Shown here: positions 33,118 through 55,742 of the stretch, in pieces
Numbering within the stretch: the stretch's first letter is position 1
Layout of the letters: each line of letters opens with the position of its first letter
Assembly (NCBI GenBank): GCA_028286905.1
Contig: JAQBQP010000003.1
Location: 23,317-87,316 of the forward strand
Source: Candidatus Doudnabacteria bacterium
Lineage (GTDB): Bacteria; Patescibacteriota; Doudnabacteria; UBA920; VMFF01
DNA length: 64,000 nucleotides
Direction of reading: 5' to 3'
The notes under the pieces: generated by a model
What the model saw: only the letters and a program-made list of their open reading frames with translations
The model's database searches: none
What the model was told of the DNA's origin: nothing
Position numbers and translations under genes: made by a program

Positions 33118-33579
33118 TTATTTTACTGAGTCAGCTGCATCTGTTGGATCAACAGCGCCGAGGTGACCGTGACCATGGCCACCTGCTTCGGTAGCGGTAA
33201 CGTTAAAGTTTCCATCCAACTTTACGGTTACTTCTGACCCGTCAGACTTAGTCATGTGCACTTCATAAGTAGCACCTTCTGCGTCGTTCTCAGCTCGATC
33301 GATGGTAGCGCCTGGAACAGCGGCTAGTGCAGCGGCGTTAGCTTTAGCTGCAACATCCCCTGTTAACAAGGTTTCCTTAACTCCATTCTGGCCGATATGT
33401 CCGCCCTTGGTGCGGTCGAACTGTCGGGCCGGAGAAGTGTTTGGGCTTGCGGTGGTCATGGCTGGGGTTGTTGTAGTGGTATCTGTAGCGGCATGTGTTT
33501 GAAATCCGATAGATACCATGGTCCCTGCCATTAGACCAACGCCTGTAAGCAATACTGCGGTCTTTTTTGATATATTCAA
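33118..33579 (-). CDS. Secreted PepSY-like domain protein with a C-terminal His-rich tract (GGHGHGHLG).
   Basis: Signal/TM anchor; PepSY-like YEVHMTKSDGSEVTVKLD motif; HGHGH cluster. Confidence 0.45.
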   Translation of the reverse strand: MNISKKTAVLLTGVGLMAGTMVSIGFQTHAATDTTTTTPAMTTASPNTSPARQFDRTKGGHIGQNGVKETLLTGDVAAKANAAALAAVPGATIDRAENDAEGATYEVHMTKSDGSEVTVKLDGNFNVTATEAGGHGHGHLGAVDPTDAADSVK

Positions 33580-36656: not shown

Positions 36657-37202
36657 TTAAGCACTTCCCTGCAACGAATTAGTATTATTTAAAATAGATT
36701 TCGCTTCCTCTTCTCGCGCAGTCCAACTTTCTGGTTTTAACGCTGCAAAGTTTGTTTTAATTATTTCTTGTAGTTCTGCTGGCATCGCTTTAGTAAAATT
36801 ACCAGAGTAGGTAAAGCGCAGTTTTTTCTGCCAATCAGCAGGCAGCAACCCTCGAATTTGGGGCATTACTTCTTGAGGTGCAAACAAATAAAACCAATCG
36901 AACTTATTATCTCGGGAAAGTTCTTCGACTTTAGTTTTAAATTGCACTGAGAAATCGTGCCGCTCACCGGTATCCTTCTTTTCATTATCGGACGAAGTTC
37001 CCAGCGCAGATATAGAATTGTCGCGACCCCGATAACCTTCGGCGTCTGTGTAAACAGTATGTTCGACATGCACTACCGGTTCCGGAGTTAATCGACCATC
37101 TTCAAATTTATACATCTTAGCAATATGCTCGCCGCTAACAATTATTAAAGAGGTTTCATCTTGCAAGGGTTCCTGGTAAGTATCGTTGTGGTATATTTCC
37201 AT
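36657..37202 (-). CDS. Hypothetical protein (181 aa).
   Basis: Complete ORF with its own terminator (36585-36618). Confidence 0.5.
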   Translation of the reverse strand: MEIYHNDTYQEPLQDETSLIIVSGEHIAKMYKFEDGRLTPEPVVHVEHTVYTDAEGYRGRDNSISALGTSSDNEKKDTGERHDFSVQFKTKVEELSRDNKFDWFYLFAPQEVMPQIRGLLPADWQKKLRFTYSGNFTKAMPAELQEIIKTNFAALKPESWTAREEEAKSILNNTNSLQGSA

Positions 37203-37321: not shown

Positions 37322-38263
37322 CTATTCGGACTCATAGTCGAGCAAGGCCATCATTGGATAATGGTCGCTCGGATAGATTCCCCCTTTGTTGTCTTTCACA
37401 AGTACGCTGTTCAGAACCTTGAAGCCACGAACGAAGATCCATTCGGTATCCCAGGTTCCCCAACCATCTCCCCGATAGTCCACTCCCTGGAAACCGTGGT
37501 AAGTCATCGGCCGGCGCAACGAAGTCAGCTGACCCAACACCCTCCCCTGATTTGGATCATAGGGATGAGCAGCAATCCAGGTGTCGGTAAATCCGGCCTT
37601 GACCATCATGTCGTAGGGCCGGCGCATATCTGGATCCCCCCAACTGCGTTTTTCGGGATCTGCCCAACGCTGGTGCGGCGAGCCAAGAGTGCCCTGAGGC
37701 GAGCCCACGCTGACATTGCTGTCAGCAGTGATAATCGTCGGCAAAGGCCGATTTGAGCGAAAATTTCCTTCAGCAAACTGCAAAATCAATCGCACGCCTT
37801 CAGCCCGAGCAACTATTCCTTTGTTGTCCAAGTGAGCGTTGATGTGCAGAAAGGTTCTTCTCATTGCCCGATCTAAAACAAGCACCCAACTAGCACCGTG
37901 CTCGACGACGCCATCCCAACCCTTCTTGTAGCTACCATCGTCGCTGAGCCAGAAAGTCCCCCGCTCAATCAGTTCGAAACGAACCGGGTCGAAAGCAATC
38001 GGATTGATGAAAATGTCACCGGCCTCTTCGCCGTAGTAGACATCCATCTCGGGATGACCTCGATGCAAACTGTTCCAGCTGTTACGCTGCTCAGGGTTTT
38101 CCGGATCTTTGCGACCAAATTCCTGGAAACCCACCAAACCGACCGGCATGTTGCCAAACACTTCGGTGGCAAGATCGGCTCGCTGCTTCCACCCCATCCA
38201 CGCCTGGCCAGCAACGTTGAACGTCGCCACCCAGAACAATGAACCATCCGGTTTGATAACCAA
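37322..38263 (-). CDS. Endonuclease/exonuclease/phosphatase (EEP) family protein on a high-GC island. Start chosen at the MVIKPDG Met at 38263 (a TTG start at 38271 and an ATG at 38230 are alternatives).
   Basis: EEP signatures (N-terminal Asn/Glu, HINAHLD, C-terminal SDHYPMMA); own terminator 37273-37315. Confidence 0.7.
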   Translation of the reverse strand: MVIKPDGSLFWVATFNVAGQAWMGWKQRADLATEVFGNMPVGLVGFQEFGRKDPENPEQRNSWNSLHRGHPEMDVYYGEEAGDIFINPIAFDPVRFELIERGTFWLSDDGSYKKGWDGVVEHGASWVLVLDRAMRRTFLHINAHLDNKGIVARAEGVRLILQFAEGNFRSNRPLPTIITADSNVSVGSPQGTLGSPHQRWADPEKRSWGDPDMRRPYDMMVKAGFTDTWIAAHPYDPNQGRVLGQLTSLRRPMTYHGFQGVDYRGDGWGTWDTEWIFVRGFKVLNSVLVKDNKGGIYPSDHYPMMALLDYESE

Positions 38264-42142: not shown

Positions 42143-43264
42143 CTAACGCGAATGCTCTTCCAACTCCTTCAGCTCTCTGCGCCTGATCTCCAGTTCATCG
42201 CGCAGGCTAACCTTCTTAATCTCGGCTTCATGGCGCTTTTGAGCGTTCATCGCACGAATGAACTTCCTCCTTCCGCGCTGGAGCAAGGGATAAAGCAAAA
42301 GAATTCGGGCCGGCTCACGAGAGTTAAGCGTAAGCATACCCGCAAACCTTGGATCTGTTGATTGCTCGCCGTAGCGATCTTCTAACCGACCTTCGATAGA
42401 AGTTGCCATTCCGCTGCGGCGCACCAACGCCTCCAACGCTTGGCGAGTTGGCCGATCAAGCTTGCGATCGAAAAGAAAACCAAGCTGGTCGTATTCTCGG
42501 AATAACTCAACCAGTTGTGGCCGCAGTTTCCGAAAATATTGCAACGTTTCAGCGTATGCCTTTTCCTCGGATCCATCTCCAAACTTCCTTTCAAAATAGT
42601 CCCGAGCGGGCTTAGTACCGACAAGTTCATCCCCGAAGTTCCAAGCAAACTTCAAGAATTTGCGAAAAAACGCTATCGCCTTCTTGTCGTAATTGTCGCC
42701 CTCATGAGTGCGAACGTTGGCAGCCCAATAGGTGTCACAAGCGCGCCAACGTTTGGAGTCAAAAAACTTGATCGCCTCTCTGGCCAATTCCGGTTCCATA
42801 AGAAGGCTTTCATACCTAAGATGGACGCCGGTCCCTTCGTCATGAAAAACGAAGAAACGATTACACAACTCCACCCAAGCTTTGTCCGCAAGTTTCTGCA
42901 AAACCTCGGGACGGCTTAGCTCGCCCATCCAGCCGCGGAGCTTGTAGGTACTCGAGCCAAAGTTTTTCGCATTCTGATGGCCATCCGCGACGAGCAAGTA
43001 GTGCCGAAAAATCCGGACGAGGTCCGTTGTCGACGCGTCCCTCGATGGCAACGATTGGAGGCCCCAATGCAACAGATTAAGTAAAGCAGGCCAGTCATTT
43101 CGCATTAGGGAAGCATCCCATTGCAGGAACCAATCAGATATGCTTGTAGCTTCGTTACCGAGCTGGGCAAAATCTCGTCCAGCCAGAAAAAGCTCGGGCG
43201 TGTGCGTGTTAGACATGACATCCTCCTCAAGATTGGGAACGTTACACCGCCTGCTAGGCGGCAA
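42143..43264 (-). CDS. Hypothetical protein (373 aa) on a GC-elevated island; no motif recognised.
   Basis: Long ORF with terminator 42090-42123 and an upstream 7-bp inverted repeat at ~43282-43301. Confidence 0.5.
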   Translation of the reverse strand: MPPSRRCNVPNLEEDVMSNTHTPELFLAGRDFAQLGNEATSISDWFLQWDASLMRNDWPALLNLLHWGLQSLPSRDASTTDLVRIFRHYLLVADGHQNAKNFGSSTYKLRGWMGELSRPEVLQKLADKAWVELCNRFFVFHDEGTGVHLRYESLLMEPELAREAIKFFDSKRWRACDTYWAANVRTHEGDNYDKKAIAFFRKFLKFAWNFGDELVGTKPARDYFERKFGDGSEEKAYAETLQYFRKLRPQLVELFREYDQLGFLFDRKLDRPTRQALEALVRRSGMATSIEGRLEDRYGEQSTDPRFAGMLTLNSREPARILLLYPLLQRGRRKFIRAMNAQKRHEAEIKKVSLRDELEIRRRELKELEEHSR

Positions 43265-43429: not shown

Positions 43430-43861
43430 TTATAAAGTTCTGGTAAAGATTAGGTATCGAGGACTTACTGTGCTCGACTGCCTAATCCCTGTTTGACGGT
43501 ACGGCATACCCATTTTGATCAAACGGGATTCCGCCGCACCGAAGACCTCGACCTCTTCAGTAGCGAGAGTGGTGTCATGGTTTACATCGAACTGCCAGCT
43601 ACGGTACCGTGAGTCCATCTGATAGGCGCCCACGAAACTCACAATCTCGTTCGGCAGCTCTCTCAATACTGCCTCATGAAACTGCTCCACGGAAACCTTT
43701 ACCACCTTCTTATTCACCACCGCCGTATCGGGTGACTCAGGAGTTCCTTTCAAGAAACTCCTGATCCATTTCTTGATAAGCATACCAAGTTCCGTGAAAG
43801 GGTTTAACAGATGATGATATAAAAAAATACCACAAAACGTGGTATTTGTAAATGGAGGCAT
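43430..43861 (-). CDS. Hypothetical protein (143 aa), GC-elevated.
   Basis: ORF + terminator 43352-43387. Confidence 0.4.
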   Translation of the reverse strand: MPPFTNTTFCGIFLYHHLLNPFTELGMLIKKWIRSFLKGTPESPDTAVVNKKVVKVSVEQFHEAVLRELPNEIVSFVGAYQMDSRYRSWQFDVNHDTTLATEEVEVFGAAESRLIKMGMPYRQTGIRQSSTVSPRYLIFTRTL

Positions 43862-44289: not shown

Positions 44290-45393
44290 TTAATAGCTTA
44301 TCGTAGACAGACCCTCGGTGGCTTGATTCCAATCCCCAGGCAAAGCTGATTGATATTTTTTTACATACTCAATGAAATTCGGTGGTACGCTTTGGCCTTT
44401 AGGAGCCAATATAACGAATCCGACTTTGAAGTTTTTTTGGCTATCGGAAACAGTTGGCACTCTATCCCCCACCTTCTTAACGACATCTTGAATGGTTATC
44501 GTGTTTGTGCTCAAAAAATCTGCAGGCTGATCGCAATTCGGTCCCCAGGTATTATAATAATCATCATTAGGCTTATCTTTTAACTGTTGTAAATATATTG
44601 GAGGGACCGATTCTGCAGGAATAAAACCCATCAAGTATAAAGACAGTTTTGAAAATTTATGCGACGTTAAATTACCATTTACACATTTGTACTGATCATT
44701 GGAATCAATCCATTGATAATAGGCCATTGGATCTACAAAACTTGAATCGCCGCTAAATAAATCTAAATTGTAAGGATAATGACCGAAGTCTCCATTCCAT
44801 CCCATTGGTTTGTTTATGTAATCCAACCAATAATGCCCTATTTCGTGTAACGAAATGGTTCTTAAATTATCATCAAAATTCGGAGGATTCGGTTTGGTGC
44901 CGTACCAAATTCTATAGGAGTCTGAAAGAACCACCGCCTTCAAATTTTTCGTTGCATTATTGGAAAAAACTGAATCAATGCCAATCCCTTTGACTTCTCT
45001 ATTAATAACATTCGAAGTGTAAGCCGGCAACATATCCAAAGGGAACACCATCAAGAAATCATACTTGTCATCATGCGACCTGTAGAACTGATTAACAAAT
45101 TTATTTACATCAACATTCCAATAATCTTTGCCCTGAACGGGAGTTAAAATATCGTTTGTGGTTTGTTCTTCTAAAACGTAGATCTCAGTATTCGGCTTAT
45201 CAGCTATTGGCTTAGTTTCTACTATGGGGGCAAGTTTGCTTTGTTCTAATGTGGTAGGCTGACCGATTGGAGTCTGATCTAAAACAGTAGGAGTTGGTGT
45301 TATTATTTTATTTTCTGGTAATAGTTGCGGGACAGATTGGCACCCTACAGCTGACAGAAATATCATGCAAAGGATTAAAGGCGTTTTTTTCAT
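44290..45393 (-). CDS. Putative secreted zinc-metalloprotease lipoprotein.
   Basis: Lipobox (LSAVGC); HEIGH (HExxH) motif. Confidence 0.5.
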   Translation of the reverse strand: MKKTPLILCMIFLSAVGCQSVPQLLPENKIITPTPTVLDQTPIGQPTTLEQSKLAPIVETKPIADKPNTEIYVLEEQTTNDILTPVQGKDYWNVDVNKFVNQFYRSHDDKYDFLMVFPLDMLPAYTSNVINREVKGIGIDSVFSNNATKNLKAVVLSDSYRIWYGTKPNPPNFDDNLRTISLHEIGHYWLDYINKPMGWNGDFGHYPYNLDLFSGDSSFVDPMAYYQWIDSNDQYKCVNGNLTSHKFSKLSLYLMGFIPAESVPPIYLQQLKDKPNDDYYNTWGPNCDQPADFLSTNTITIQDVVKKVGDRVPTVSDSQKNFKVGFVILAPKGQSVPPNFIEYVKKYQSALPGDWNQATEGLSTISY

Positions 45394-45755
45394 ATGTTAT
45401 TCTTTTTTTATATCATAACAAAAAATCGTCTTACTGGCGACAAAACAAAAACTACCGCTTGAACCGTGGTTTTTGTTAGTGGACATCGTAACAAATCAGC
45501 CAAGCTCGATCGAGGACTGGATTATGGAAAGTATGGATTAATTAAGCCTTACGAAAGGTTCAAATTTATTGGTAAAATGCTATTAGTGCTACACGTAATG
45601 GTATTTAAATGGAATACTTAAAATAGCGCTTAGTATTTTGCTATATAGGCTTTTAATAAAAGGCATAAGTTGCTAAGATATATATAATTGTGTAAGTCCT
45701 TAGACAAGTACTTAAAAGAAACAAAAAAAGAAAGCAAATTATTAGATCACTTTCT

Positions 45756-46736
45756 ATGAGCATAATGAATAGAACAAAATATTTTGATTATGCAGAAGGA
45801 AAGCTGGTTAACCTTGCTCATGCAATTACCATTAATGGTAAGCTCAACCTTTTGCATTTGCATACTCACGCTGAAGAGTTTTATCTTAATTTTTTTAGAG
45901 AGCTATATAAATGGGATTTAAAAAATCTCAATGCTGCTAAAAGGAATTCTGAAGCTGTTGATTTAATTTCTGAGTCTGCAAAAGTTATAATTCAAGTATC
46001 AGCAACTTGCACGAAGGACAAAATAGAATCTGCTCTAGGTAAAAAAGTAATCGAAAGATATAAGGACTATAGCTTTAAGTTTATTTCCATTTCATCAGTG
46101 GACGCAAGTCAGTTAAGAGCAAAGGTTTTTAAAAACCCTTACGGGATATCATTTAATCCCGTCGTTGATATATACGATACAACTTCTATAGTTGCTAATA
46201 TTTTAAGTCTTGAGGTTGATCGCCAAAAAGATATATACAAGTTTCTTAAAAAAGAGCTTGGTCAAGAAATAGATATTGAAAAATTGGATTCAAATTTAGC
46301 GACAATTATAAACATTCTCTCTCAAAAAAACCTAGATCAAAACGATCAGCCAATTACAATAAACGGTTTTGAAATAGAACGTAAGATTTCCTTTAATGAT
46401 CTCAAGACTGCACAATATGTGATTCAAGATTATGGAATACACCACAATCGAATTGACAAGATATATTCTGAGTTTGATGAATCAGGAGTTAATAAAAGTA
46501 TTTCAGTATTGGGGTGGATTAGAGGAGAATATGTAAGGAATATGTCTGTAAAAAAAGATGATGAGCTTTTTTTCTTAATTGTAAAAAATATACAAGAAGT
46601 CATTATGCAGAGTGCGAATCTTGCGTCGATAACAATTGAAGAATTAGAGCTTTGCGCTAATATATTAGTTGTCGATGCCTTTATTCGTTGTAAAATCTTT
46701 CGAAACCCAAAAGACTACAAATATGCTACTACCTGA
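45756..46736 (+). CDS. Component A (326 aa) of a three-gene candidate defense operon; putative effector, possibly nuclease-like.
   Basis: Strongly AT-rich relative to flanks; start of a translationally coupled trio; no secretion signal. Confidence 0.55.
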   Translation: MSIMNRTKYFDYAEGKLVNLAHAITINGKLNLLHLHTHAEEFYLNFFRELYKWDLKNLNAAKRNSEAVDLISESAKVIIQVSATCTKDKIESALGKKVIERYKDYSFKFISISSVDASQLRAKVFKNPYGISFNPVVDIYDTTSIVANILSLEVDRQKDIYKFLKKELGQEIDIEKLDSNLATIINILSQKNLDQNDQPITINGFEIERKISFNDLKTAQYVIQDYGIHHNRIDKIYSEFDESGVNKSISVLGWIRGEYVRNMSVKKDDELFFLIVKNIQEVIMQSANLASITIEELELCANILVVDAFIRCKIFRNPKDYKYATT

Positions 46737-46950
46737 TAATATACATCCAGAAAATACTATTTATTTTAATGGAGCTTTTGTCCTTAAGGAATTACAGAGA
46801 CAGCCTGACCAAGGCCTACTAGATTTATATGAGAATGTAAAAAGACAAAGAAATTTAAGCTTTCCTATTTTTATTCTATGCTTAGATTGGCTTTATTTGC
46901 TGGGCGTAGCTGAAACAAATAATCAAGATAAAATAAAATTATGTTTTTAA
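46723..46950 (+). CDS. Small middle ORF (75 aa), overlapping gene A's stop by 14 nt and gene B's start by 10 nt; candidate kleisin-like / middle component.
   Basis: ATG at 46723; TAA at 46948-46950 overlapping the ATG (46941) of the ATPase gene. Confidence 0.35.
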   Translation: MLLPDNIHPENTIYFNGAFVLKELQRQPDQGLLDLYENVKRQRNLSFPIFILCLDWLYLLGVAETNNQDKIKLCF

Positions 46951-48671
46951 AGTCGTTAATAATATCAAGTAAAGGGAATAATATTCGGGAAATTATTTTT
47001 CGAAAAGGACTTAATTTAATTGTTGATGAAACTCCCGAAATTAGCGGCAAAACCACAGGAAATAATGTTGGAAAAACAACCGTTTTAAAGTTGATTGATT
47101 TTTGCTTGGGAGCTGATCCTAAAAATGTATACATTGATCCAGAATCTCGAAAGGATAATTACGATCTTGTTAAAAACTATTTAATAGACAAGCATATCCT
47201 TATTACGTTAGTGTTAAAAGAGAATTTAGATTTAGAAAATTCTTTCGAAATTGTTATTGAAAGAAATTTTTTGGCTCGTAAAAATAAAATATTAAAAGTT
47301 AATCAAGAAAATTTAACCGAAGATGAATTTGAGCAAAAGCTTTTGCAATTAATTATTCCAGGTCATAATGAAGAAAAACCCACATTCAGACAAATAATAT
47401 CACACAACATCCGCTATAAGGATGAGAGCGTGAGCAATACTCTTAAAACATTAGATAGATATACGACCGATATAGAGTATGAGTCATTATATTTATTTTT
47501 GTTTGGGTGCAAATTTACAAAAGGAGATTCTAAGCAATTAATTTCTGAAAAGTTAAAACAAGAAACTACTTACAAAAGCAGGTTAGAAAGACAGCAGACA
47601 AAAACCGCATATCAGGCCGCTCTTAATATTATAAATTCTGAAATTGAAGATTTAAATAATAAGAAAGCGGATTTAAATATAAATCCAAACTTCGAAAATG
47701 ACTTGGATAAGTTGAATGTGATCAAGTATGAAATTAATAAAACAAGCTCTGAAATAAGTAAATTTACTATCAGAAAAAACTTGATAATAGAAGCTGAACA
47801 GGAATTAGATGCTAAAAAGTCAGTTATTGATTTAGTTCAGCTGAGATCCATATACCAACAAGCCACCGAACAAATAAGGGGTATACAAAAAACATTTGAT
47901 GATTTAGTAAATTATCACAACCAAATGATATTTGAAAAAGTAAAGTTTATTAAAAAAGAACTTCCGACTATAGAAAAATCCATACGAGAAAAGCAGATTA
48001 ACCTAAAAGAACAGCTGCGAGAAGAAGAAGTACTTACTTCAAGCATCTCAAAAAGTGATTCATTCGAAGCGTTGGAGAGCTTGATCGCAGAACTAACTGA
48101 AAAATTTAGAAAAAAAGGGGAATATGAGAGTATCATCAAACAGTTAATTGAGGTTGAAAAAAACATTGGGGAATATACTGCTCAACTTGATGAAATAAAT
48201 GATGAATTATTTTCAGGTGATTTTGAACAAAAAGTTAAAGATCAATTAGATAAATTCAATATTATTTTTGCCAGTATATCAAATCAGTTATATGGTGAGC
48301 CATACGCAATAAAGCACGACATAATTACCAATACCAAAAACCAACGTTTGTATAAATTTAGTGCCTTTAATACAAATTTAAGCTCTGGCAAAAAGCAAGG
48401 TGAAATTTCCTGTTTTGACTTGGCATATACGTTGTTTGCAGATGAAGAACGTATCCCTTGTTTACATTTTTTACTTAACGATAAAAAAGAATTAATGCAC
48501 GATAATCAGTTGGTAAGAATTGCTAACTTTGTAAGCAATAAGAACATACAGTTTGTAGCCTCAATGCTAAGAGATAAATTACCAGAAGAGCTGAACCAAG
48601 AGAATTATTTTGTAGTTAAGCTTTCTCAGCAAGATAAATTATTTAGAATTGAAGAGAATAATCAAATCTAA
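46941..48671 (+). CDS. SMC/Rad50-like ABC ATPase with a long coiled-coil insert (576 aa); component B of the candidate defense operon (LmuB / ABC-3C ATPase-like).
   Basis: N-terminal Walker A GNNVGKTT; ~250-aa heptad-rich K/E/L region; C-terminal signature-like LSSGKKQ, a degenerate Walker B (FLLND) and a His (LMHD). Confidence 0.65.
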   Translation: MFLKSLIISSKGNNIREIIFRKGLNLIVDETPEISGKTTGNNVGKTTVLKLIDFCLGADPKNVYIDPESRKDNYDLVKNYLIDKHILITLVLKENLDLENSFEIVIERNFLARKNKILKVNQENLTEDEFEQKLLQLIIPGHNEEKPTFRQIISHNIRYKDESVSNTLKTLDRYTTDIEYESLYLFLFGCKFTKGDSKQLISEKLKQETTYKSRLERQQTKTAYQAALNIINSEIEDLNNKKADLNINPNFENDLDKLNVIKYEINKTSSEISKFTIRKNLIIEAEQELDAKKSVIDLVQLRSIYQQATEQIRGIQKTFDDLVNYHNQMIFEKVKFIKKELPTIEKSIREKQINLKEQLREEEVLTSSISKSDSFEALESLIAELTEKFRKKGEYESIIKQLIEVEKNIGEYTAQLDEINDELFSGDFEQKVKDQLDKFNIIFASISNQLYGEPYAIKHDIITNTKNQRLYKFSAFNTNLSSGKKQGEISCFDLAYTLFADEERIPCLHFLLNDKKELMHDNQLVRIANFVSNKNIQFVASMLRDKLPEELNQENYFVVKLSQQDKLFRIEENNQI

Positions 48672-49508
48672 ATAGTTTAATAGGATGTCGAAAATATCAA
48701 CTTTCATCTTTTTCGTAAGCTCAACTATTTGCTCATCATATAAAAATAGTTTGGTGGAGGCTGCGGCCGTCCCTCACGGGACTGCAGCTCTCCTACAAGA
48801 ACGCCCGGCAATTGCCATGGCAATCAAAATGCAGCGCTTTAGGCGCTGCATTTTGATTGGTGGAGATGGCGAGAGTTAAACTCGCGTCCAAAAAGAATTC
48901 CCCTAAAAATTGATCACAAGCTTAGCGTCCTTTGATACTTTGAAGCAGCAAGAACGCGAAATAACTTCAAAGTTGGTTTACTGAGTTTCTTCCGGTTACG
49001 GCAAACCAACGTCGCCGGTATATCCTATAAATAAAGTGCGGGATCCACCGCTATAGAAAAACGGAGGGCGCACGTCCCGACCTAAGTTAGGCTAGGACCA
49101 ATGAAGGAGTAGCGAATGCAGTTTGCAACGCTCTCTTCATTGTGGCAAAAGAATTGCCAAATATGAGTTTTTCTCAAGAATGTTACGAGGTTCTGAGAAT
49201 ACTCGGCTTGCGTATTTTCAAGGTTCAGCTCTCTGTCAAAATCCGGCATCCCCATGTTCCTGCTTTTGCAGGGATCAACATTATTACATATTTCGGGCTT
49301 AAAATCAAGGCGAACATCTTAAACTCCAGCTACTCTATCCTACCCTCTTTGCATGACTAAAAACTCTTAGGCAAACATCTAAACTTATCCGTGCCTTATA
49401 GATCTTTCGTACAAATTATTTACAAAGTTCCGCTAACCACAGGCTAGGAATTGAGCACAATGCCCAATGTCAAAGCCCAAGCATATGTATAAAATAGATA
49501 TTACCAGT

Positions 49509-50135: not shown

Positions 50136-51338
50136 ATGTATCGCAGAATAATTGGAATTAGCTTAATAATTCTGGGGGTGGTTTTAGTTTTGTCTGTAAA
50201 ATACCAAACTAGTTCAAAATTCCAGCAGCCGATTGTTTTCTCTGAAAGGAATATGCTTGAGGGAATTTGGAACACCGACAAAAAAATATTCATCGACCAA
50301 AGTGGCAGAACTGTAGATGCCAGCCGCGGAAATACTAGCACTTCTGAAGGGCAGGCTTATACCCTGCTCCGCGCAGTTTGGTTAGACGACAAAAGCACCT
50401 TTGACCAAAGCTGGACTTGGACCCAAAACAACTTACAGCACAAGCAAAACGATAAACTATTCTCTTGGTATTTTAGCAAGCTTGCAGATGGCAGCTATGG
50501 CGTCGACCCTAAAATTGGCGCGAACAATACTGCTACCGATGGCGACACCGATATAGCGGTAGCACTTATTTTTGCTTACGATCGCTGGGGCGACAAAGCT
50601 TATCTTGACCAAGCGAAACAAATCATTCCAGACATTTGGAAAAATGAAGTAATCGTAATCAAAGGCAAGTCTTATTTACTTGCAAACAATTTAGAAAAAA
50701 CTTCTGACAAGCAAAAATTAATTATAAATCCTTCTTATATTAAACCTTACGCTTATAGAATTTTTGCAAAGTACGACAGCAACGATTGGTTGGGCTTAAC
50801 AAATAATTCCTATCAAACCCTTACGGACGTTTCGGCAATGGATTTGAATGGCATTCGCAGCGATGGCTTGCCTCCAAACTGGGCCACTGTCGATAAAACT
50901 ACAGGGGCGCTTGCAGGGCCAGATCCGCAAAAACAACCAACCCTAAATACCAACTTTAGCTTTGATGCGATGCGAGTACCTTTTAATTTAGCTTTAGACT
51001 GGGCATGGTTTAAGGATGATCAAGCTAAGATTTTATTATCCAAATTTGGATTCTTAAACCAGCAATGGCAGCAGAACCAAGCAATTTATACCGACTACAC
51101 CCGCGACGGACAGATCGCACAGCGCCAAGAAGCTCCTGCTGTTTACGGCGGTACGCTGGGATATTTTATTTCAACTAACCCAGACCAAGCCGCAGCAATT
51201 TATAACACTAAGTTAAAGGTTTTATACTCCCCGGACAAAGATTACTGGAAAGAAGATTTAAATTATTACGATGATAACTGGGCATGGTTTGGCTTAGCCT
51301 TGTATAACAATTTTACAATTAATCTTGATTCGATATGA
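50136..51338 (+). CDS. Glycoside hydrolase family 8 endo-β-1,4-glucanase (BcsZ-like).
   Basis: TSEGQAY (catalytic Glu block) and ATDGDTDIA block characteristic of GH8; N-terminal TM. Confidence 0.7.
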   Translation: MYRRIIGISLIILGVVLVLSVKYQTSSKFQQPIVFSERNMLEGIWNTDKKIFIDQSGRTVDASRGNTSTSEGQAYTLLRAVWLDDKSTFDQSWTWTQNNLQHKQNDKLFSWYFSKLADGSYGVDPKIGANNTATDGDTDIAVALIFAYDRWGDKAYLDQAKQIIPDIWKNEVIVIKGKSYLLANNLEKTSDKQKLIINPSYIKPYAYRIFAKYDSNDWLGLTNNSYQTLTDVSAMDLNGIRSDGLPPNWATVDKTTGALAGPDPQKQPTLNTNFSFDAMRVPFNLALDWAWFKDDQAKILLSKFGFLNQQWQQNQAIYTDYTRDGQIAQRQEAPAVYGGTLGYFISTNPDQAAAIYNTKLKVLYSPDKDYWKEDLNYYDDNWAWFGLALYNNFTINLDSI

Positions 51339-52852
51339 TCAATAATAATTTTTTAATTTCAAAGGCCTCCAAGCCAATTATCGTTTCCACCGCGCTTTTG
51401 GCGTTAACATATTTTATTTCGATTGCATTCTTTTTCCCAAAAGGAAATCCTTTTGTGTTTGCATTGCTGGCGATCACTCAAGCGTTTTATCTTTGGATGA
51501 CTTTGAGTTTTTCTTTTTCAATTTGGAAAACTGAAACCCCTGTTCCGCTTTTTAATAAGCGTTTTGCAAGATCGGTTGATGTCTTTATTACTGTAGCCGG
51601 CGAACCATTAGATATTGTTCGCGAAACAGTTCAAGCTGCAAAAAAGATGAGCTACTTAAACTTCAAAGTTTACATTTTAAATGATGGCTATGTAGCTAAA
51701 AAGGATAATTGGAAAGAAATTATTGAAATGGCGAAGCAAGAAGGAGTAAGCTGCATTACCCGTACCAAGCCCGGCGGCGCAAAAGCTGGAAATATTAACC
51801 ACGCTCTAAGCTTAACTAAAGCGGCCTATGTTGTGATTTTCGATGCCGATCATGTTCCGCACAAAGACTTCTTAAAGAAAACGATGGGCTATTTTGAAGA
51901 TCCAAAAATGGGCTTCGTTCAAACACCGCAATATTATAAAAACTTTAATCGCAACGATATCACCAAAGGCGCTTGGGAACAGCAAGAGTTATTTTTTGGC
52001 GCGATTTGCAAAGGCAAGAATGCCTCGAACGCAGCCTTTATGTGCGGCACGAATATGGTCTTAAACCGCGCGGCATTAACCGCGGCTGGCGGAATGAACG
52101 AAGAAAATATTACTGAAGACTTTGCAACATCAATGAAGATTCATTCTTTAGGCTGGAAGTCTTATTATCATGGCGAGGTTTTGGCCGAGGGGTTAGCGCC
52201 AGAAGATTTTCTTTCTTATTACAAACAGCAGCTGCGCTGGTCTCGCGGCAGCCTAGAAGTTTTGGTGCAAAACAATCCACTGTTTGTTAAAGGATTGAGC
52301 CTGAGACAAAAGCTTCAATATATCGCTTCGGCTAGCTATTACTTATCTGGAATCATGGTGCTAATTAATGCTTTACTGCCATTAATATTTTTCTTTACTG
52401 GTTTAGCGCCATTACACGTTTCAACAATGACTCTGGCAACGGTTTTCATTATCTACATGTTTCTCTCTATATATACGCTTAGCCTCTCGACAAACTTCTC
52501 CTACACTTACACTGCGGTCTCCTTTTCGCTCAGCAGCTTTGCAATCTTTACTCGAGCATTGTTTTCAACGATTACTCGCGGCAAACAAAATTTTTCGATT
52601 ACAAGCAAAACGGCAATTGAAGGGAACTTTTTGAATCTTGTAATTCCAAACATTTTGTACATTGGCGTCACAATTATTGGAGTGGTTTTTGCAATCTCCC
52701 GTTGGGGCCTTACCGATGGAGTTGTCACGAACATCTGTTGGGCTTTATTCCACTGCATCACCTTCTCAGTATTTATATTTGCCGCAATGCCAAAAGGCTT
52801 TCAGCAATTTAATCGCATCAAAAAAATAAACTTAAGAACCATTAAATCCTAG
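51335..52852 (+). CDS. Processive family-2 glycosyltransferase, cellulose-synthase (BcsA)-like.
   Basis: DAD (FDADHVP), TED (TEDFATS) and QxxRW (QQLRWSRG) motifs; flanking TM helices. Confidence 0.8.
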   Translation: MINNNFLISKASKPIIVSTALLALTYFISIAFFFPKGNPFVFALLAITQAFYLWMTLSFSFSIWKTETPVPLFNKRFARSVDVFITVAGEPLDIVRETVQAAKKMSYLNFKVYILNDGYVAKKDNWKEIIEMAKQEGVSCITRTKPGGAKAGNINHALSLTKAAYVVIFDADHVPHKDFLKKTMGYFEDPKMGFVQTPQYYKNFNRNDITKGAWEQQELFFGAICKGKNASNAAFMCGTNMVLNRAALTAAGGMNEENITEDFATSMKIHSLGWKSYYHGEVLAEGLAPEDFLSYYKQQLRWSRGSLEVLVQNNPLFVKGLSLRQKLQYIASASYYLSGIMVLINALLPLIFFFTGLAPLHVSTMTLATVFIIYMFLSIYTLSLSTNFSYTYTAVSFSLSSFAIFTRALFSTITRGKQNFSITSKTAIEGNFLNLVIPNILYIGVTIIGVVFAISRWGLTDGVVTNICWALFHCITFSVFIFAAMPKGFQQFNRIKKINLRTIKS

Positions 52853-52854
52853 CC

Positions 52855-54354
52855 ATGGCCAATACTCCTGAAGCAAAATCCAAACAGACTACCCTGTTCG
52901 ATATAATTGTTCTAGCCGTGCTAATGGTAGGCGTAACGCTTCTTTCTGTTTTCTATTTATTGCACCAAAGCTTAAGGCTGGATGAAGCACAAAGTCTTTG
53001 GCAGACCGCGCACACGTTGCCAGTGCTTTTAAAAATTGTTGCAAAAGATGTACACGTGCCTTTATATCACATTATGCTGCATTTTTGGCAGGCGTTCTTC
53101 GGCAACTCAATTTCCGGTGCACGAGTTTTTTCTTTAATCTTTTTTGTTTTAACTATTCCAGCAATATTTGCACTTGGCAAAGAAGCCTTTGGCAGAAAGG
53201 TTGGACTATTTGCAGCAACCTTAACTGCAATCTCGCCTTTCTTAAATTGGTACGGCAGCGAAGCTAGGATGTACAGCCTATTAGTTTTAGTAACAATTTT
53301 AAACCAATGGTTTTTTATTAGAATTATTCGAGCCGGTCGAAAAAGAAATTATTGGGGTTATGCCATTACTGCACTGCTTGGAATATTTTCGCATTACTTC
53401 TTTTTCTTTGCGCTGCTTTCGCAAATTATTTTCTTTTTCATTAATAAAAAAAGCTTCCCGGAAAATGCTTTGAAATACTTTGTACGGATTGGCGCTGGCC
53501 TATTTGTACTTTTTATCCCTTGGTTGGTGTTAGTTTTCCGTTCGGGATTAGCATCACAAACGCAGCCTTTAATTACAAAACCAACTACTTATAATTTATT
53601 TAATACGATAAATTTATTTTTCTTCGGCTTTCAAGGGTCTGATTTAACCAAACTTTTGATTTCACTTTGGCCGATTATTTTTCTGTTCTTAGTTTTAGCT
53701 TTAAGAAAAGACCGCCGCAACGGCGAGCGCAGAAGAATTCCTCCGGTTACCGGTTATTTTTTACTAGCCGGAGTGATGCCAATGATCTTAGTTTTTTTGA
53801 TCAGCTTTGTAAAACCTTCTTACTTAGATCGTTATTTAATTTTTAGCATCCCTTCGGTGTTTATCTTCTTCGGCTGGATTGTCGCAACCTATCCGCCAAA
53901 AATCAAAAACTTTGTTAGCGCAGTATTGATTCTGCTAATGCTCTTTAGTTTAGGCAAAGAAGTAACCAGTGCCGCAACGCCAGTTAAAGAAGATTACCGC
54001 GCTGCAGTGGACTACCTTCAGCAAAAAGCTGGCATTCAAGATGTAATTATTGTATCGGCACCATTTACCGTTTACCCGATTGAATATTATTACCATGGGC
54101 CAACCAGCATCCAAACCATTCCAAATTGGAACAGATACGACACAACCGGCATCCCCGCTTTTTCAGAAGCGGAATTACCGGCAGATGTTGACAAGCTAAA
54201 AAGTCAGTATAGAATTGCTTGGGTTATTTTAAGCTATGACCAAGGCTACAACGAAAATATTCGAACCTACATGGACCAGCACTACCAACGCGTTGATCAA
54301 AAATCTTTTTCACAAAACGTAAATCTTTACGCTTATAAATTAAAGTACAATTAG
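52855..54354 (+). CDS. GT-C fold (ArnT/PMT-like) membrane glycosyltransferase.
   Basis: First-loop DE motif (RLDEAQS); ~11 TM helices; soluble C-terminal domain. Confidence 0.55.
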   Translation: MANTPEAKSKQTTLFDIIVLAVLMVGVTLLSVFYLLHQSLRLDEAQSLWQTAHTLPVLLKIVAKDVHVPLYHIMLHFWQAFFGNSISGARVFSLIFFVLTIPAIFALGKEAFGRKVGLFAATLTAISPFLNWYGSEARMYSLLVLVTILNQWFFIRIIRAGRKRNYWGYAITALLGIFSHYFFFFALLSQIIFFFINKKSFPENALKYFVRIGAGLFVLFIPWLVLVFRSGLASQTQPLITKPTTYNLFNTINLFFFGFQGSDLTKLLISLWPIIFLFLVLALRKDRRNGERRRIPPVTGYFLLAGVMPMILVFLISFVKPSYLDRYLIFSIPSVFIFFGWIVATYPPKIKNFVSAVLILLMLFSLGKEVTSAATPVKEDYRAAVDYLQQKAGIQDVIIVSAPFTVYPIEYYYHGPTSIQTIPNWNRYDTTGIPAFSEAELPADVDKLKSQYRIAWVILSYDQGYNENIRTYMDQHYQRVDQKSFSQNVNLYAYKLKYN

Positions 54355-54410
54355 ATCTTTCATTTAAGCTTGGTGACTGTTTTGGATTAAGGCATTATTC
54401 ACGAACTAAA

Positions 54411-55742
54411 TTAATTCGCTCTAACGGCTAAACCCAAGGCATACGCTGGCCAGAATACTCCGGCAGCAGGACCGCCATTGCATTGGCCGTCTGAACCGCC
54501 AGGTCCCTTTACCCACAACAGAGCGTCTACTAAATTATTCCCGGTTGAAGTTGTCGGAGCGCTGCCCAAGGCTCTTCCATTGGGATTACACCATTGAGAA
54601 TCTGACGTTGCACCTAGTCCATTGCGACCAGTATCAATCACAAAATGTTTATTGCCTACCAAAGCCGAAAGCTCAGTGCCATAAGTAATGTTTTGAGCAG
54701 TACTATAAAAATTTGAAATGTTTAAAGAAAAGCCATCTGCCTGCGCAATCCCCGCTTGATTTAGAAGCGCGGCCATTACAGCAGGCGTTTTCCAATTCGG
54801 ATTGCCGGCATCGATATATACAGCAGTTTTAGAGTTTGCTTTTAATGTTTGAACCGCATAATTTATCAGACCGATCCTGGCTTGCTGATCTGCAGATGAC
54901 AAACAATCCATTCCTGGAAGCGCATCCGGTTCAAGTAATACTACTGCGCTGCGATTACCAATGCCTCGAGCAAAATCTGAAATCCAAATTTTGTAAGCAG
55001 TGGAGCTATTAGAACCGCCGGCAGAATAACTACCGCAATCTCTTTGCGGAATATTATAAGCAACCATTACAGGCAACGCTCCTTGGTTTGTAATGTTTGT
55101 AACATTGTTGCTCACGTCTTTGTAAATATCTACATTCCAATTGCCAAACCATTGCGTTTCCGGTTGAGCAGCAATCTTATCCATAAGCGCGGCGTTAGCA
55201 GGGTCGGAATTACGGTTGGCGCTAACCCAATTCTTTGAATCTGAATATGGGTTCACAAATAATTTTGCATTGTTAAAAACACTAGTATTCACTGGCGCCG
55301 GTACAACTGGAGCAGGTGCAACATTTATTTTTGGTGCATTAACGATTATTGTTGATGGCGCTTGGCTAAGAAAACTGCCATCCAGATTTTGTGCTACGAA
55401 ATTCAATTGATAAACTCCATTCGAATTCCAGTACCAATTTGTTAAGTCGATATTTATTTCTTTATGCGGATAACCTTCGTAGTTGCTTGGCATGTAATTG
55501 AGTTTGCCACCGTCGACCTGCCAATACATATTGTACTGATCAACATTCCAACCATTTAACGTTGCTTTAAGTGGCTGAACTCCAGAAACGCTGACATTAT
55601 TTGTTGGCCACCAAATGTTTATACTTGGAGTTTGAGAGCTTGCTTCTACAGTACCGGTCATAAAAAACGATCCGAGCAACGAAGCAATAATTGCGAACAC
55701 TGAAATTTTTCGATAAAGATTTTGCGAGATATTTTTGGTCAT
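54411..55742 (-). CDS. Secreted glycoside hydrolase family 6 (cellulase) with an N-terminal beta-rich (CBM-like) domain.
   Basis: GH6 signature blocks YNIPQRDCG (catalytic Asp), VLLEPDALPG, LWVKGPGGSDG. Confidence 0.7.
   Translation of the reverse strand: MTKNISQNLYRKISVFAIIASLLGSFFMTGTVEASSQTPSINIWWPTNNVSVSGVQPLKATLNGWNVDQYNMYWQVDGGKLNYMPSNYEGYPHKEINIDLTNWYWNSNGVYQLNFVAQNLDGSFLSQAPSTIIVNAPKINVAPAPVVPAPVNTSVFNNAKLFVNPYSDSKNWVSANRNSDPANAALMDKIAAQPETQWFGNWNVDIYKDVSNNVTNITNQGALPVMVAYNIPQRDCGSYSAGGSNSSTAYKIWISDFARGIGNRSAVVLLEPDALPGMDCLSSADQQARIGLINYAVQTLKANSKTAVYIDAGNPNWKTPAVMAALLNQAGIAQADGFSLNISNFYSTAQNITYGTELSALVGNKHFVIDTGRNGLGATSDSQWCNPNGRALGSAPTTSTGNNLVDALLWVKGPGGSDGQCNGGPAAGVFWPAYALGLAVRAN

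What the first reader, a model, noticed from the sequence alone, without database searches (positions are those of the whole stretch)
45756..48671. AT-rich, translationally coupled three-gene operon: candidate Lamassu / ABC-3C-like defense system
Three + strand genes are packed with overlapping stop/start codons: a 326-aa protein, a 75-aa ORF (14-nt overlap upstream, 10-nt ATGTTTTTAA overlap downstream) and a 576-aa protein. The last has an N-terminal Walker A (GNNVGKTT), a ~250-residue heptad-rich coiled coil, and a C-terminal ABC signature-like LSSGKKQ plus a degenerate Walker B, i.e. an SMC/Rad50-type split ABC head. The order effector / small protein / SMC-like ATPase is the architecture of Lamassu (LmuA-LmuC-LmuB; Vibrio DdmABC) and of ABC-3C conflict systems. 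The block is visibly much more AT-rich (~30% GC) than its neighbours, lies between unrelated cell-surface genes, and is followed by ~840 bp of non-coding DNA, so it looks like a horizontally acquired defense island. Neither protein A nor the small ORF matches anything I can name, so if the call is right this is a divergent or undescribed variant.
Basis: partly seen in the sequence, partly recalled or inferred. Interest (0 to 1): 0.8.

Follow-up and report, generated by a model that had tools for sequence, protein, structure and literature searches.

The report
Lamassu defence operon with SMEK nuclease
This is an intact three-gene Lamassu (ABC-3C) anti-phage/anti-plasmid system of an already catalogued subtype, sitting as a foreign AT-rich insert next to the tmRNA gene of a Candidatus Doudnabacteria genome; it is a correct call but an ordinary member of a known family.

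Summary
The three overlapping + strand genes are real and intact. All three match curated families of the ABC-three-component (ABC-3C) systems, which recent literature treats as type II or "short" Lamassu.

- **Protein A (326 aa):** SMEK_N plus ABC-3C CTD10, making it LmuA.
- **The 75-aa ORF:** ABC-3C middle component MC6, making it LmuC.
- **The 576-aa protein:** a DUF2326/YydD-type SMC/Rad50-like ABC ATPase, making it LmuB.

SMEK_N is homologous to the Mrr-like PD-(D/E)xK nuclease domain of the Kordia jejudonensis short-Argonaute partner (profile E=1e-17). The model has a restriction-endonuclease-like fold.

The same trio, with the same 14/10-nt gene overlaps, recurs in many bacteria and archaea at 54-77% identity. 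It often sits in prophage-like elements or restriction-modification islands. In all six loci measured it is more AT-rich than its flanks.

The host is a Candidatus Doudnabacteria MAG.

- The "non-coding" DNA downstream holds a full tmRNA gene.
- There is no multi-system island, integrase or att repeat.
- The variant is not undescribed. SMEK is a listed effector class of short Lamassu, although I found no experimental test of it.

Verdict: a new member of a known kind, of modest interest.

The parts
45394..45755 (+). Upstream intergenic region, where the operon's promoter presumably lies but was not identified
   Evidence: No ORF with family support lies here. Sigma-70-like matches in the region do not exceed the shuffled expectation (24 against 17.6 +/- 4.1). 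GC falls to about 0.30 from roughly 45500.
45756..46736 (+). lmuA: the effector protein, 326 aa
   Evidence: Pfam gives SMEK_N at 1.4e-34 and ABC-3C CTD10 at 2.1e-30. There are 1949 homologues at E<=1e-5, and the best 120 are 54-69% identical and carry the same two domains. It is 100% identical to a 'hypothetical protein JWO40_876' of a Candidatus Doudnabacteria MAG.
45798..46202 (+). SMEK_N domain of LmuA (residues 15-149): a Mrr-like PD-(D/E)xK nuclease fold and the predicted effector
45873..46022 (+). Candidate active-site residues of SMEK_N: E40, D69, Q80, S82, K87, K89
   Evidence: These are invariant or at least 90% conserved in 39 homologues. E, D and Q-x-[S/T] align with HAEHF / AIDLAD / QITST of the K. 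jejudonensis Mrr domain. Their catalytic role is inferred, not shown.
46290..46700 (+). CTD10 domain of LmuA (residues 179-315): an all-helical docking and oligomerisation domain
46723..46950 (+). lmuC: the middle component, 75 aa, overlapping lmuA by 14 nt and lmuB by 10 nt
   Evidence: Pfam gives MC6 at 8.8e-28, covering 3-74 of 75 residues. A 75-aa MC6 gene sits in the same position in all seven other contexts. The overlaps were confirmed as conserved in six loci.
46941..48671 (+). lmuB: an SMC/Rad50-like ABC ATPase of the DUF2326/YydD type, 576 aa, the predicted DNA sensor
   Evidence: Pfam gives DUF2326 at 9.8e-21. PADLOC gives PDC-M68B at 4e-34 and LmuB at 1.4e-9. Foldseek on the AF2 model gives the YydD model 9a6c_A at 1.2e-16, Salmonella LmuB 9hqx_B at 8e-9 and type II Lamassu 9uxh_F at 4.4e-8, together with SMC and Rad50 heads. 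Homologues are 66-77% identical, archaea included.
47058..47081 (+). Walker A of LmuB (G40-NNVGKTT47)
   Evidence: G40, G44, K45, T46 and T47 are invariant in 30 homologues.
47523..48293 (+). Coiled-coil insert of LmuB (about residues 195-451), with no CxxC zinc hook
   Evidence: The AF2 model has long helices at 195-215, 221-243, 249-291, 298-309, 319-338, 341-370, 376-423 and 426-451. The translation has no Cys in this stretch.
48378..48398 (+). ABC signature-like motif of LmuB (L480-SSGKKQ486)
   Evidence: S481, S482, G483, K485 and Q486 are invariant.
48465..48482 (+). Walker B-like strand of LmuB (H509-FLLND514), followed by K515 rather than an acidic or polar residue
   Evidence: H509, F510, L512, N513, D514, K515, K516 and E517 are invariant. 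The strand at 511-513 appears in the model. This deviates from the hhhhD[Q/S/T/E] consensus reported for short LmuB (10.1101/2025.04.02.646746). The assignment was made by eye.
48821..48859 (.). Perfect 17-bp hairpin abutting the tmRNA 3' end. It is probably the tmRNA terminator or processing stem and could also stop lmuB read-through.
   Evidence: Inverted repeat I17, 100% complementary with a 5-nt loop. No T-run follows, so the terminator scan did not list it.
48858..49253 (-). tmRNA (ssrA) gene. It is not part of the system, but its 3' end faces the operon 186 bp from the lmuB stop.
   Evidence: Rfam RF00023 scores 115.5 bits and covers model positions 1-374 of 374. ARAGORN missed it.

Best explanation
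The locus is a complete short (type II) Lamassu / ABC-3C defence system of the SMEK-effector subtype. It was acquired horizontally by a Candidatus Doudnabacteria chromosome and inserted beside the tmRNA gene.

The mechanism below is inferred from solved Lamassu complexes, not shown for this locus.
1. The three genes are translated in a coupled fashion.
2. They assemble into a complex in which a dimer of the SMC/Rad50-like ATPase LmuB, with the 75-aa LmuC, holds a monomer of LmuA through its helical CTD10. This keeps the N-terminal SMEK (Mrr-like PD-(D/E)xK) nuclease inactive.
3. LmuB and LmuC survey DNA. On meeting DNA ends or aberrant replication structures of a phage or plasmid, they use ATP binding and hydrolysis to release LmuA.
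4. Free LmuA oligomerises through its CTD, and the nuclease domains then cut DNA indiscriminately. This aborts the infection or eliminates the invading element.

Shown here: gene structure, family membership of all three proteins, folds, conservation of motif residues, recurrence of the trio and its foreign composition.

Inferred: complex stoichiometry, the trigger, nuclease activity and the abortive outcome.
For: - **Family matches for all three proteins.** SMEK_N 1.4e-34 plus CTD10 2.1e-30; MC6 8.8e-28; DUF2326 9.8e-21. PADLOC gives PDC-M68B at 4e-34 and LmuB at 1.4e-9.
- **Literature equivalence.** Type II Lamassu is the same thing as ABC-3C, with LmuA CTDs and LmuC MCs named after ABC-3C families (10.1101/2025.06.23.660979). 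ABC-3C is included in Lamassu, short LmuB is about 600 aa, and SMEK is an effector class of short Lamassu (10.1101/2025.04.02.646746).
- **LmuB fold.** The model matches the YydD model (1.2e-16), solved LmuB chains 9hqx_B, 9hqu, 9uxh_F and 9ux7_A (8e-9 to 1.5e-6), and SMC/Rad50 heads. Walker A, Q-loop, signature and Walker B Asp are invariant.
- **SMEK_N is a portable effector.** It also heads STAND+TPR proteins.
- **Recurrence.** The trio recurs with conserved overlaps in Bacteroidetes, Omnitrophica, archaea and others. It lies within prophage-like elements, a type I RM/MmeI island and integrase-bearing regions.
- **Composition.** Operon GC is 5-11 points below the flanks in all six loci.
- **Intactness.** All conserved residues are present in the window's copies.
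- **Mechanism source.** The Lamassu mechanism comes from the discussion of 10.1101/2025.04.02.646746.
Against: - I found no experimental test of the SMEK/CTD10/MC6/DUF2326 subtype.
- LmuB shows no sequence-level hit to solved LmuB chains, and its match to the PADLOC LmuB model is modest (1.4e-9).
- The residue after the Walker B Asp is Lys, outside the published short-LmuB consensus. No H-loop His was obvious by eye. ATP hydrolysis may therefore differ.
- The canonical Lys of the (D/E)xK triad is Ser in SMEK_N (Q80-V-S82).
- In this window there is no neighbouring defence gene, integrase or att repeat.
- No close relative with an empty site was found.
Confidence: 0.82

Rival explanations
1. 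The same Lamassu-type machine serves mainly the mobile elements that carry it, for example in exclusion of competing phages or plasmids, or in addiction and stabilisation. In this genome it would be a stranded passenger rather than a host-selected antiphage system.
For: In L002 and L086 the trio lies inside prophage-like or integrative elements carrying a large serine recombinase, Dcm-Vsr and a terminase. An integrase is nearby in the archaeal L088. Identity across domains is very high (66-77% for LmuB) and AT bias is uniform, which points to rapid spread on vehicles.
Against: In the window and in L004 the trio stands alone in chromosomal DNA without mobility genes. All ORFs and motif residues are intact, which argues for continued selection. 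In L087 it sits in a classical chromosomal RM island. This reading changes the beneficiary, not the mechanism.
Confidence: 0.1
2. The 576-aa protein is a housekeeping SMC/RecN/SbcC-type DNA-repair or chromosome-maintenance ATPase, with the two upstream genes as its accessory subunits.
For: It has an SMC/Rad50-like fold, and SMC, cohesin, condensin and Rad50 heads appear among the Foldseek hits. Lamassu is thought to derive from SbcCD (10.1101/2025.04.02.646746).
Against: - No NCBIfam or Pfam housekeeping family is matched.
- The best matches are YydD and LmuB.
- The partners are SMEK_N-CTD10 and MC6, not Mre11/SbcD or a kleisin.
- Distribution is patchy, and the trio is absent from 80 Patescibacteria loci sharing the neighbouring cluster.
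- The GC content is foreign.
Confidence: 0.02
3. The operon is an inactive relic whose ATPase no longer cycles (degenerate Walker B, no H-loop His) and which no longer provides defence.
For: The Walker B Asp is followed by Lys, and no obvious H-loop His was seen by eye. No promoter stood out above chance.
Against: The same 'degenerate' residues (D514, K515, K516, E517) are invariant across 30 homologues from bacteria and archaea, so they are a family feature and not decay. All three ORFs are full length relative to homologues, and the translational-coupling overlaps are preserved.
Confidence: 0.05

Closest known systems
Short (type II) Lamassu, e.g. Vibrio cholerae DdmABC / Lamassu Vc-Cap4 and Salmonella enterica LmuACB (PDB 9hqx, 9hqu)
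   Different: - The effector is SMEK (Mrr-like), not Cap4.
- The CTD is CTD10 and the middle component is MC6, whereas V. cholerae has CTD7 and MC3.
- LmuB is of the DUF2326/YydD type, with no sequence-level match to solved LmuB chains.
- Walker B is D-K rather than D[Q/S/T/E].
ABC-3C systems as classified by Krishnan et al. 2020, the source of Pfam SMEK_N, CTD10, MC6 and related families (paper not held in the library; cited through)
   Same: All three proteins hit the corresponding Pfam families well above gathering thresholds. The gene order and operon structure are as described for ABC-3C.
   Different: None detected. This locus is a straightforward instance in a new host.
Bacillus subtilis YydD (DUF2326), modelled with YydB in PDB 9a6c
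   Same: It is the best structural match of LmuB (Foldseek 1.2e-16, TM 0.54). JGI names the homologues 'YydD (DUF2326 family)'.
   Different: Identity is only 17%. The partner effector in the deposited model is YydB, not a SMEK protein, and the full LmuA model matched 9a6c_B only at E=0.21.
SMEK/Mrr-APAZ partner of the Kordia jejudonensis short prokaryotic Argonaute (PDB 26bh)
   Same: The nuclease domain is homologous (profile E=1.2e-17 over residues 8-164) and shares the E / D / Q-x-[S/T] residues. In both cases it is an effector held by a nucleic-acid sensor.
   Different: The sensor there is a guide-loaded short Argonaute reached through an APAZ domain. Here it is an SMC-like ATPase reached through CTD10 and MC6.
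SbcCD / Rad50-Mre11
   Same: The ABC head is split by an antiparallel coiled coil, and the proposed ligands are DNA ends or hairpins.
   Different: There is no Mre11/SbcD phosphoesterase partner and no zinc hook. The coiled coil is much shorter, the composition is foreign and the distribution is patchy.

Membership tests
Lamassu, short / type II (= ABC-3C) | LmuB is an SMC/Rad50-like ABC ATPase with an N-terminal Walker A, a coiled-coil insert and a C-terminal signature plus Walker B, about 600 aa long. | tested here: met
   The protein is 576 aa. The motifs are invariant in 30 homologues. The AF2 model shows a head plus about 255 residues of helices. Foldseek hits solved LmuB chains at 8e-9 to 1.5e-6.
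Lamassu, short / type II (= ABC-3C) | LmuB matches LmuB-type sequence models. | tested here: met
   PADLOC gives LmuB PDLC03859 at 1.4e-9 over residues 1-500, LmuB PDLC03867 at 3.1e-7, and PDC-M68B at 4e-34. Pfam gives DUF2326 at 9.8e-21. The match to the LmuB models proper is modest, and there is no phmmer or hmmsearch hit to solved LmuB chains.
Lamassu, short / type II (= ABC-3C) | LmuC is a small middle-component protein of an ABC-3C MC family, encoded between lmuA and lmuB. | tested here: met
   MC6 at 8.8e-28 with full-length coverage of the 75-aa ORF. The gene is in the same position in seven other contexts.
Lamassu, short / type II (= ABC-3C) | LmuA has an N-terminal effector domain fused to an ABC-3C C-terminal domain. 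| tested here: met
   SMEK_N at 1.4e-34 plus CTD10 at 2.1e-30. SMEK is listed among short-Lamassu effectors.
Lamassu, short / type II (= ABC-3C) | The three genes form one co-directional, tightly packed operon that is conserved as a unit across taxa. | tested here: met
   Overlaps of 14 (17 in one locus) and 10 nt are conserved in six loci from unrelated hosts.
Lamassu, short / type II (= ABC-3C) | The Walker B consensus of short LmuB is hhhhD[Q/S/T/E]. | tested here: inconclusive
   The sequence is FLLND514 followed by invariant K515. The motif was assigned by eye and from the model strand at 511-513, without an alignment to a validated LmuB.
Lamassu, short / type II (= ABC-3C) | The genes lie in defence-island or mobile-element contexts. 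| tested here: met
   Homologous trios lie next to type I RM, Abi_C and MmeI genes (L087). Others sit within prophage-like elements (L002, L086), near an integrase (L088), or near RhuM, Mrr and Bro-N genes. In this window itself no defence neighbour was found.
Lamassu, short / type II (= ABC-3C) | The system protects against phage or plasmids through an LmuA1B2C1 complex that releases and oligomerises LmuA. | not testable with these tools
   This needs cloning and challenge, biochemistry, or multimer structure prediction. Only monomer predictions were available.
PD-(D/E)xK (Mrr-like) nucleases, for SMEK_N | The domain has an alpha-beta-beta-beta-alpha-beta restriction-endonuclease core fold. 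| tested here: met
PD-(D/E)xK (Mrr-like) nucleases, for SMEK_N | The catalytic residues D ... (D/E/Q)-x-K sit on strands 2 and 3. | tested here: inconclusive
   D69 lies on strand 2 and Q80-V-S82 on strand 3. Ser replaces the canonical Lys, and conserved K87 and K89 lie on the next helix. The same Q-x-[S/T] appears in the K. jejudonensis domain.
Housekeeping SMC / RecN / RecF / Rad50-SbcC | The protein matches the curated family models and has canonical partners such as kleisin or Mre11/SbcD. | tested here: not met
   No such family appears in Pfam or NCBIfam. The partners are SMEK_N-CTD10 and MC6.
Other ABC/SMC-ATPase defence systems (Wadjet, Gabija, Septu, PARIS, and others) | The proteins match the system's protein models. 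| tested here: not met
   PADLOC returned only PDC-M68B and LmuB for the ATPase, and Aga_REase for LmuA.
tmRNA (ssrA)-integrated genomic island | The element lies immediately 3' of the tmRNA gene. | tested here: met
   The tmRNA 3' end is at 48858 and faces the lmuB stop at 48671.
tmRNA (ssrA)-integrated genomic island | The element carries an integrase and is bounded by a direct repeat of the tmRNA 3' end. | tested here: not met
   No integrase was found among the neighbours. No copy of the tmRNA 3' 20-mer with 3 or fewer mismatches exists, and no local alignment exceeds the shuffled background. Only the 8-mer TGGTGGAG recurs, at 48753.

The most novel reading that the evidence does not exclude
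The SMEK/CTD10/MC6/DUF2326 trio may be a functionally distinct Lamassu lineage that has not been tested experimentally.

- Its ATPase carries an invariant Walker-B D-K, and no H-loop His was obvious by eye. It might therefore act as an ATP-binding switch rather than a hydrolysing motor.
- Its nuclease has a Q-x-S variant active site.
- Identity of 66-77% across Bacteria, CPR and Archaea would reflect very recent inter-domain spread on mobile elements.
- In an ultrasmall episymbiotic Doudnabacterium it could act against phages of the symbiont or against DNA taken up from its host.
Probability: 0.2. Interest if true: 0.5.

Novelty: new member of a known kind. Interest (0 to 1): 0.27.

Why it matters
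The locus adds an annotation: the proteins are "hypothetical" in the public record. It also shows that a genome-reduced CPR bacterium (Candidatus Doudnabacteria) carries a complete Lamassu system.

More generally, this SMEK-effector subtype is abundant. There are about 1900 LmuA homologues at E<=1e-5, and the best-scoring homologues are strikingly conserved across bacteria and archaea. I found no experimental test of the subtype, so it would be a reasonable candidate for anyone widening Lamassu biochemistry beyond Cap4 effectors.

It does not open a new class of system.

Tried and rejected
1. **Exact-protein look-up of LmuB:** not on record. LmuA was found, and it identified the MAG.
2. **Sequence searches of LmuB against PDB, single sequence and profile:** no LmuB, SMC or Rad50 hit, only designed coiled coils. 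Fold search was needed.
4. **ssrA-island hypothesis:** no att-type repeat of the tmRNA 3' end and no integrase. It was kept only as 'adjacent to tmRNA'.
5. **Empty-site test:**
   - 80 genome loci found with the neighbouring GT2 protein share only the GH8-GT2-PMT_2-GH6 cluster.
   - nhmmer found no tmRNA in any fetched locus, and Rfam found none in the seven closest.
   - The left-flank protein has no metagenome relatives.
   - Three metagenome contigs with a similar tmRNA share no flanks.
   - The result is inconclusive. It shows only that the trio is not conserved in that neighbourhood.
6. **Promoter and terminator scan:** not above shuffled expectation.
7. **Multi-system defence-island idea:** PADLOC and Pfam on neighbours within about 7 kb gave nothing.
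8. **Literature:**
   - The Krishnan et al. 2020 ABC-3C paper is not held.
   - No paper combines DUF2326 or YydD with Lamassu.
   - None of the 10 papers listed for Lamassu + Patescibacteria/CPR mentions Lamassu.
   - PDC-M68 is not discussed in the text of the PADLOC embedding preprint.


Full report
**Observation**

The window carries three co-directional ORFs:
- 45756-46736 (326 aa)
- 46723-46950 (75 aa from the ATG)
- 46941-48671 (576 aa)

They overlap by 14 nt (ATGCTACTACCTGA) and 10 nt (ATGTTTTTAA). The block has 30.2% GC against 40.7% for the window. Its genes have the lowest GC of 50 ORFs examined. Q-loop Q151 is also invariant. An AlphaFold2 model (mean pLDDT 70) shows a globular head made of the N- and C-terminal parts, with about 255 residues of long helices between them.

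One statement is wrong. The 795 bp downstream is not merely non-coding. It contains a complete tmRNA gene on the minus strand at 48858-49253 (Rfam 115.5 bits against a gathering score of 47, model positions 1-374 of 374). ARAGORN missed this gene. A perfect 17-bp hairpin abuts its 3' end.

**What the proteins are**

All three match curated families of the ABC-three-component (ABC-3C) systems:

| Protein | Pfam match | E-value |
|---|---|---|
| A (326 aa) | SMEK_N | 1.4e-34 |
| A (326 aa) | CTD10, 'C-terminal domain 10 of the ABC-3C systems' | 2.1e-30 |
| Small ORF (75 aa) | MC6, 'ABC-3C Middle Component 6', residues 3-74 | 8.8e-28 |
| Large protein (576 aa) | DUF2326 | 9.8e-21 |

PADLOC gives PDC-M68B (4e-34) and LmuB (1.4e-9) for the ATPase. 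For the N-terminus of protein A it gives an Argonaute-associated REase model (9.6e-21). NCBIfam gives only 'SMEK domain-containing protein' and no housekeeping SMC, RecN, RecF or Rad50 family.

The literature equates type II Lamassu with ABC-3C and names LmuA C-terminal domains and LmuC after the ABC-3C CTD and MC families. V. cholerae has CTD7 and MC3 (10.1101/2025.06.23.660979). A 2025 survey folded ABC-3C into Lamassu and split the family into long LmuB (about 800 aa) and short LmuB (about 600 aa). It listed SMEK as an effector class specific to short Lamassu (10.1101/2025.04.02.646746). The locus is therefore lmuA-lmuC-lmuB of a short Lamassu with a SMEK effector.

**Fold-level checks**

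LmuB shows no sequence-level hit to solved structures. Its model, however, matches the following by Foldseek:
- the B. subtilis YydD model 9a6c_A (1.2e-16)
- Salmonella LmuB 9hqx_B (8e-9)
- type II Lamassu LmuB 9uxh_F (4.4e-8)
- LmuAB 9ux7_A (1.5e-6)
- SMC, cohesin, condensin and Rad50 heads

The coiled coil has no CxxC zinc hook, as reported for the V. cholerae protein.

Stronger evidence comes from a profile of 39 LmuA homologues. It hits the solved 'Mrr domain from Kordia jejudonensis Mrr-APAZ pAgo' (26bh_D) at E=1.2e-17, with E40, D69 and Q80-x-S82 aligned to HAEHF, AIDLAD and QITST. [quoted passage not shown] It also cites earlier work in which the K. jejudonensis SMEK-APAZ/short-Argonaute heterodimer cleaves target DNA.

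SMEK_N also heads STAND-NTPase+TPR proteins of 770-1400 aa. This is the behaviour of a portable immune effector domain. The canonical Lys of the (D/E)xK triad is Ser here, and conserved K87 and K89 sit on the following helix. The precise active site therefore remains inferred.

**Distribution and context**

LmuA is 100% identical to a 'hypothetical protein JWO40_876' of a Candidatus Doudnabacteria MAG, and LmuB to JWO40_878. The window is chromosomal. It carries two class I aminoacyl-tRNA synthetase genes (one of them arginyl-tRNA synthetase), UvrD, ABC transporters and the tmRNA.

LmuA has 1949 homologues at E<=1e-5. The best 120 are 54-69% identical and have the same two domains. They come from Pacebacteria, Bacteroidetes, Omnitrophica, Phycisphaerales, Deltaproteobacteria, Euryarchaeota and Methanosarcinales. 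LmuB homologues are 66-77% identical, again including archaea.

In seven other genomic contexts the same SMEK_N-CTD10 / 75-aa MC6 / DUF2326 trio appears:
- **L002 and L086:** inside prophage-like elements with a large serine recombinase. L086 also carries Dcm-Vsr and a terminase.
- **L087:** directly after a type I RM + Abi_C + MmeI cluster.
- **L088 (archaeal):** near an integrase and DUF499/DUF1156 genes.
- **Context of P0018:** near RhuM, Mrr and Bro-N genes.
- **L004 (Bacteroidetes):** alone between housekeeping genes.

The 14- (or 17-) and 10-nt overlaps are conserved, and the operon GC is 5-11 points below the flanks in all six loci measured.

In the window itself, neighbours within about 7 kb have no defence-family hits. 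This is a solitary system, not a multi-system island.

**Insertion site**

The tmRNA 3' end faces the operon, 186 bp from the lmuB stop. That is the classical position of ssrA-integrated islands. However, there is no integrase, no copy of the tmRNA 3' end beyond an 8-mer and no repeat bounding the AT-rich block.

Attempts to find an empty site failed. Eighty Patescibacteria loci share the GH8-GT2-PMT_2-GH6 cluster to the right, but none carries the Lamassu trio or the left-flank genes. No tmRNA was detected in them either, using nhmmer on all loci and Rfam on the seven closest. The left-flank protein has no metagenome relatives. Three contigs with a similar tmRNA share no flanks.

Horizontal acquisition therefore rests on three lines of evidence: composition, patchy distribution, and absence from related neighbourhoods.

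**Mechanism (inferred)**

Cryo-EM and genetics on Vc-Cap4 and related Lamassu systems support the following sequence:
1. An LmuA1B2C1 complex sequesters monomeric LmuA through its CTD.
2. LmuB and LmuC recognise DNA ends or replication-associated structures.
3. ATP hydrolysis releases LmuA.
4. LmuA tetramerises through the CTD, which activates its nuclease for indiscriminate DNA cleavage and abortive infection.

The present system has all the corresponding parts, with intact motif residues. The same scheme, with a Mrr-like SMEK nuclease as executioner, is the best-supported model.

Two family-wide peculiarities might modulate it. First, the residue after the Walker B Asp is an invariant Lys, whereas the published consensus for short LmuB is Q/S/T/E. 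Second, no H-loop His is evident by eye. Both assignments lack an alignment to a validated LmuB.

**Comparison and novelty**

The locus passes every testable membership criterion for short / type II Lamassu (ABC-3C) except the exact Walker B consensus, which is inconclusive. It fails the criteria for housekeeping SMC/Rad50, for other ABC-ATPase defence systems, and for a bona fide ssrA-integrated island.

The subtype is already catalogued in Pfam and in the 2025 Lamassu survey. I found no experimental test of a SMEK-type Lamassu. The locus is a new member of a known kind in a Candidatus Doudnabacteria genome.

Noticed in passing
Rfam detects it at 115.5 bits but ARAGORN missed it. Its T-loop is unusual (TTTAACT).
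   Followed up: yes
window 48753-48859: A GC-rich spacer lies between lmuB and the tmRNA. It holds an imperfect hairpin at about 48761-48790 and a perfect 17-bp hairpin at 48821-48859. The 8-mer TGGTGGAG, which is the complement of the tmRNA 3' end CTCCACCA, recurs at 48753. This is too short to call an att remnant.
   Followed up: partly
window 24120-24992 (+), 27225-27866 (-), 33118-33579 (-), 37322-38263 (-), 42143-43264 (-), 43430-43861 (-): Several ORFs have GC far above the window mean of 0.41. The extreme is 0.62 overall with GC3 of 0.82 for 24120-24992. None has a Pfam hit above threshold; 37322-38263 has only a weak, sub-threshold Exo_endo_phos hit. They may be foreign genes of high-GC origin, or some may be spurious ORFs on the opposite strand of real genes.
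   Followed up: partly
window 44290-45393 (-): The 367-aa left neighbour has a lipoprotein-like signal peptide (...LSAVGC) and an HEIGH (HExxH) motif, which suggests a surface Zn-metalloprotease. It has no Pfam or PADLOC hit and no relatives in the metagenome scan.
   Followed up: partly
window 50136-55742: A cluster of GH8 endoglucanase, GT2 cellulose-synthase-like protein, PMT_2 glycosyltransferase and GH6 (the last on the minus strand) is conserved in order across about 80 Patescibacteria loci (Saccharibacteria, Paceibacteria, Adlerbacteria, WWE3 and others) at 40-60% identity.
   Followed up: partly
P0245, P0247, P0262, P0271, P0303 (relatives of window 45756-46283): The SMEK_N domain also forms the N-terminus of 770-1400-aa proteins carrying nSTAND3 or AAA NTPase domains and TPR repeats, and of one protein with a PIN-TPR-GreABC domain. 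These are NLR/Avs-like architectures, so SMEK_N is a shared effector module across Lamassu, short pAgo and STAND systems.
   Followed up: partly
P0122-P0240 and P0002-P0120 (homologues of window 46941-48671 and 45756-46736): Conservation of this Lamassu subtype across domains is unusually high. LmuB is 66-77% identical and LmuA 54-69% identical among CPR bacteria, Bacteroidetes, Omnitrophica, Planctomycetes, Methanosarcinales and other Euryarchaeota. The operon GC is always lower than that of the host flanks. Together these suggest recent wide horizontal spread.
   Followed up: partly
window 1037-3427 (-): A 796-aa protein has a TrbL/VirB6-like region (E=2.8e-6), which may be part of a type IV secretion or conjugation-like apparatus.
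   Followed up: no
window 36657-37202 (-): A 181-aa protein matches baeRF_family12 (bacterial archaeo-eukaryotic release-factor-like) at E=9e-7, a domain family often linked to conflict systems. It lies 8.5 kb from the Lamassu operon.
   Followed up: no
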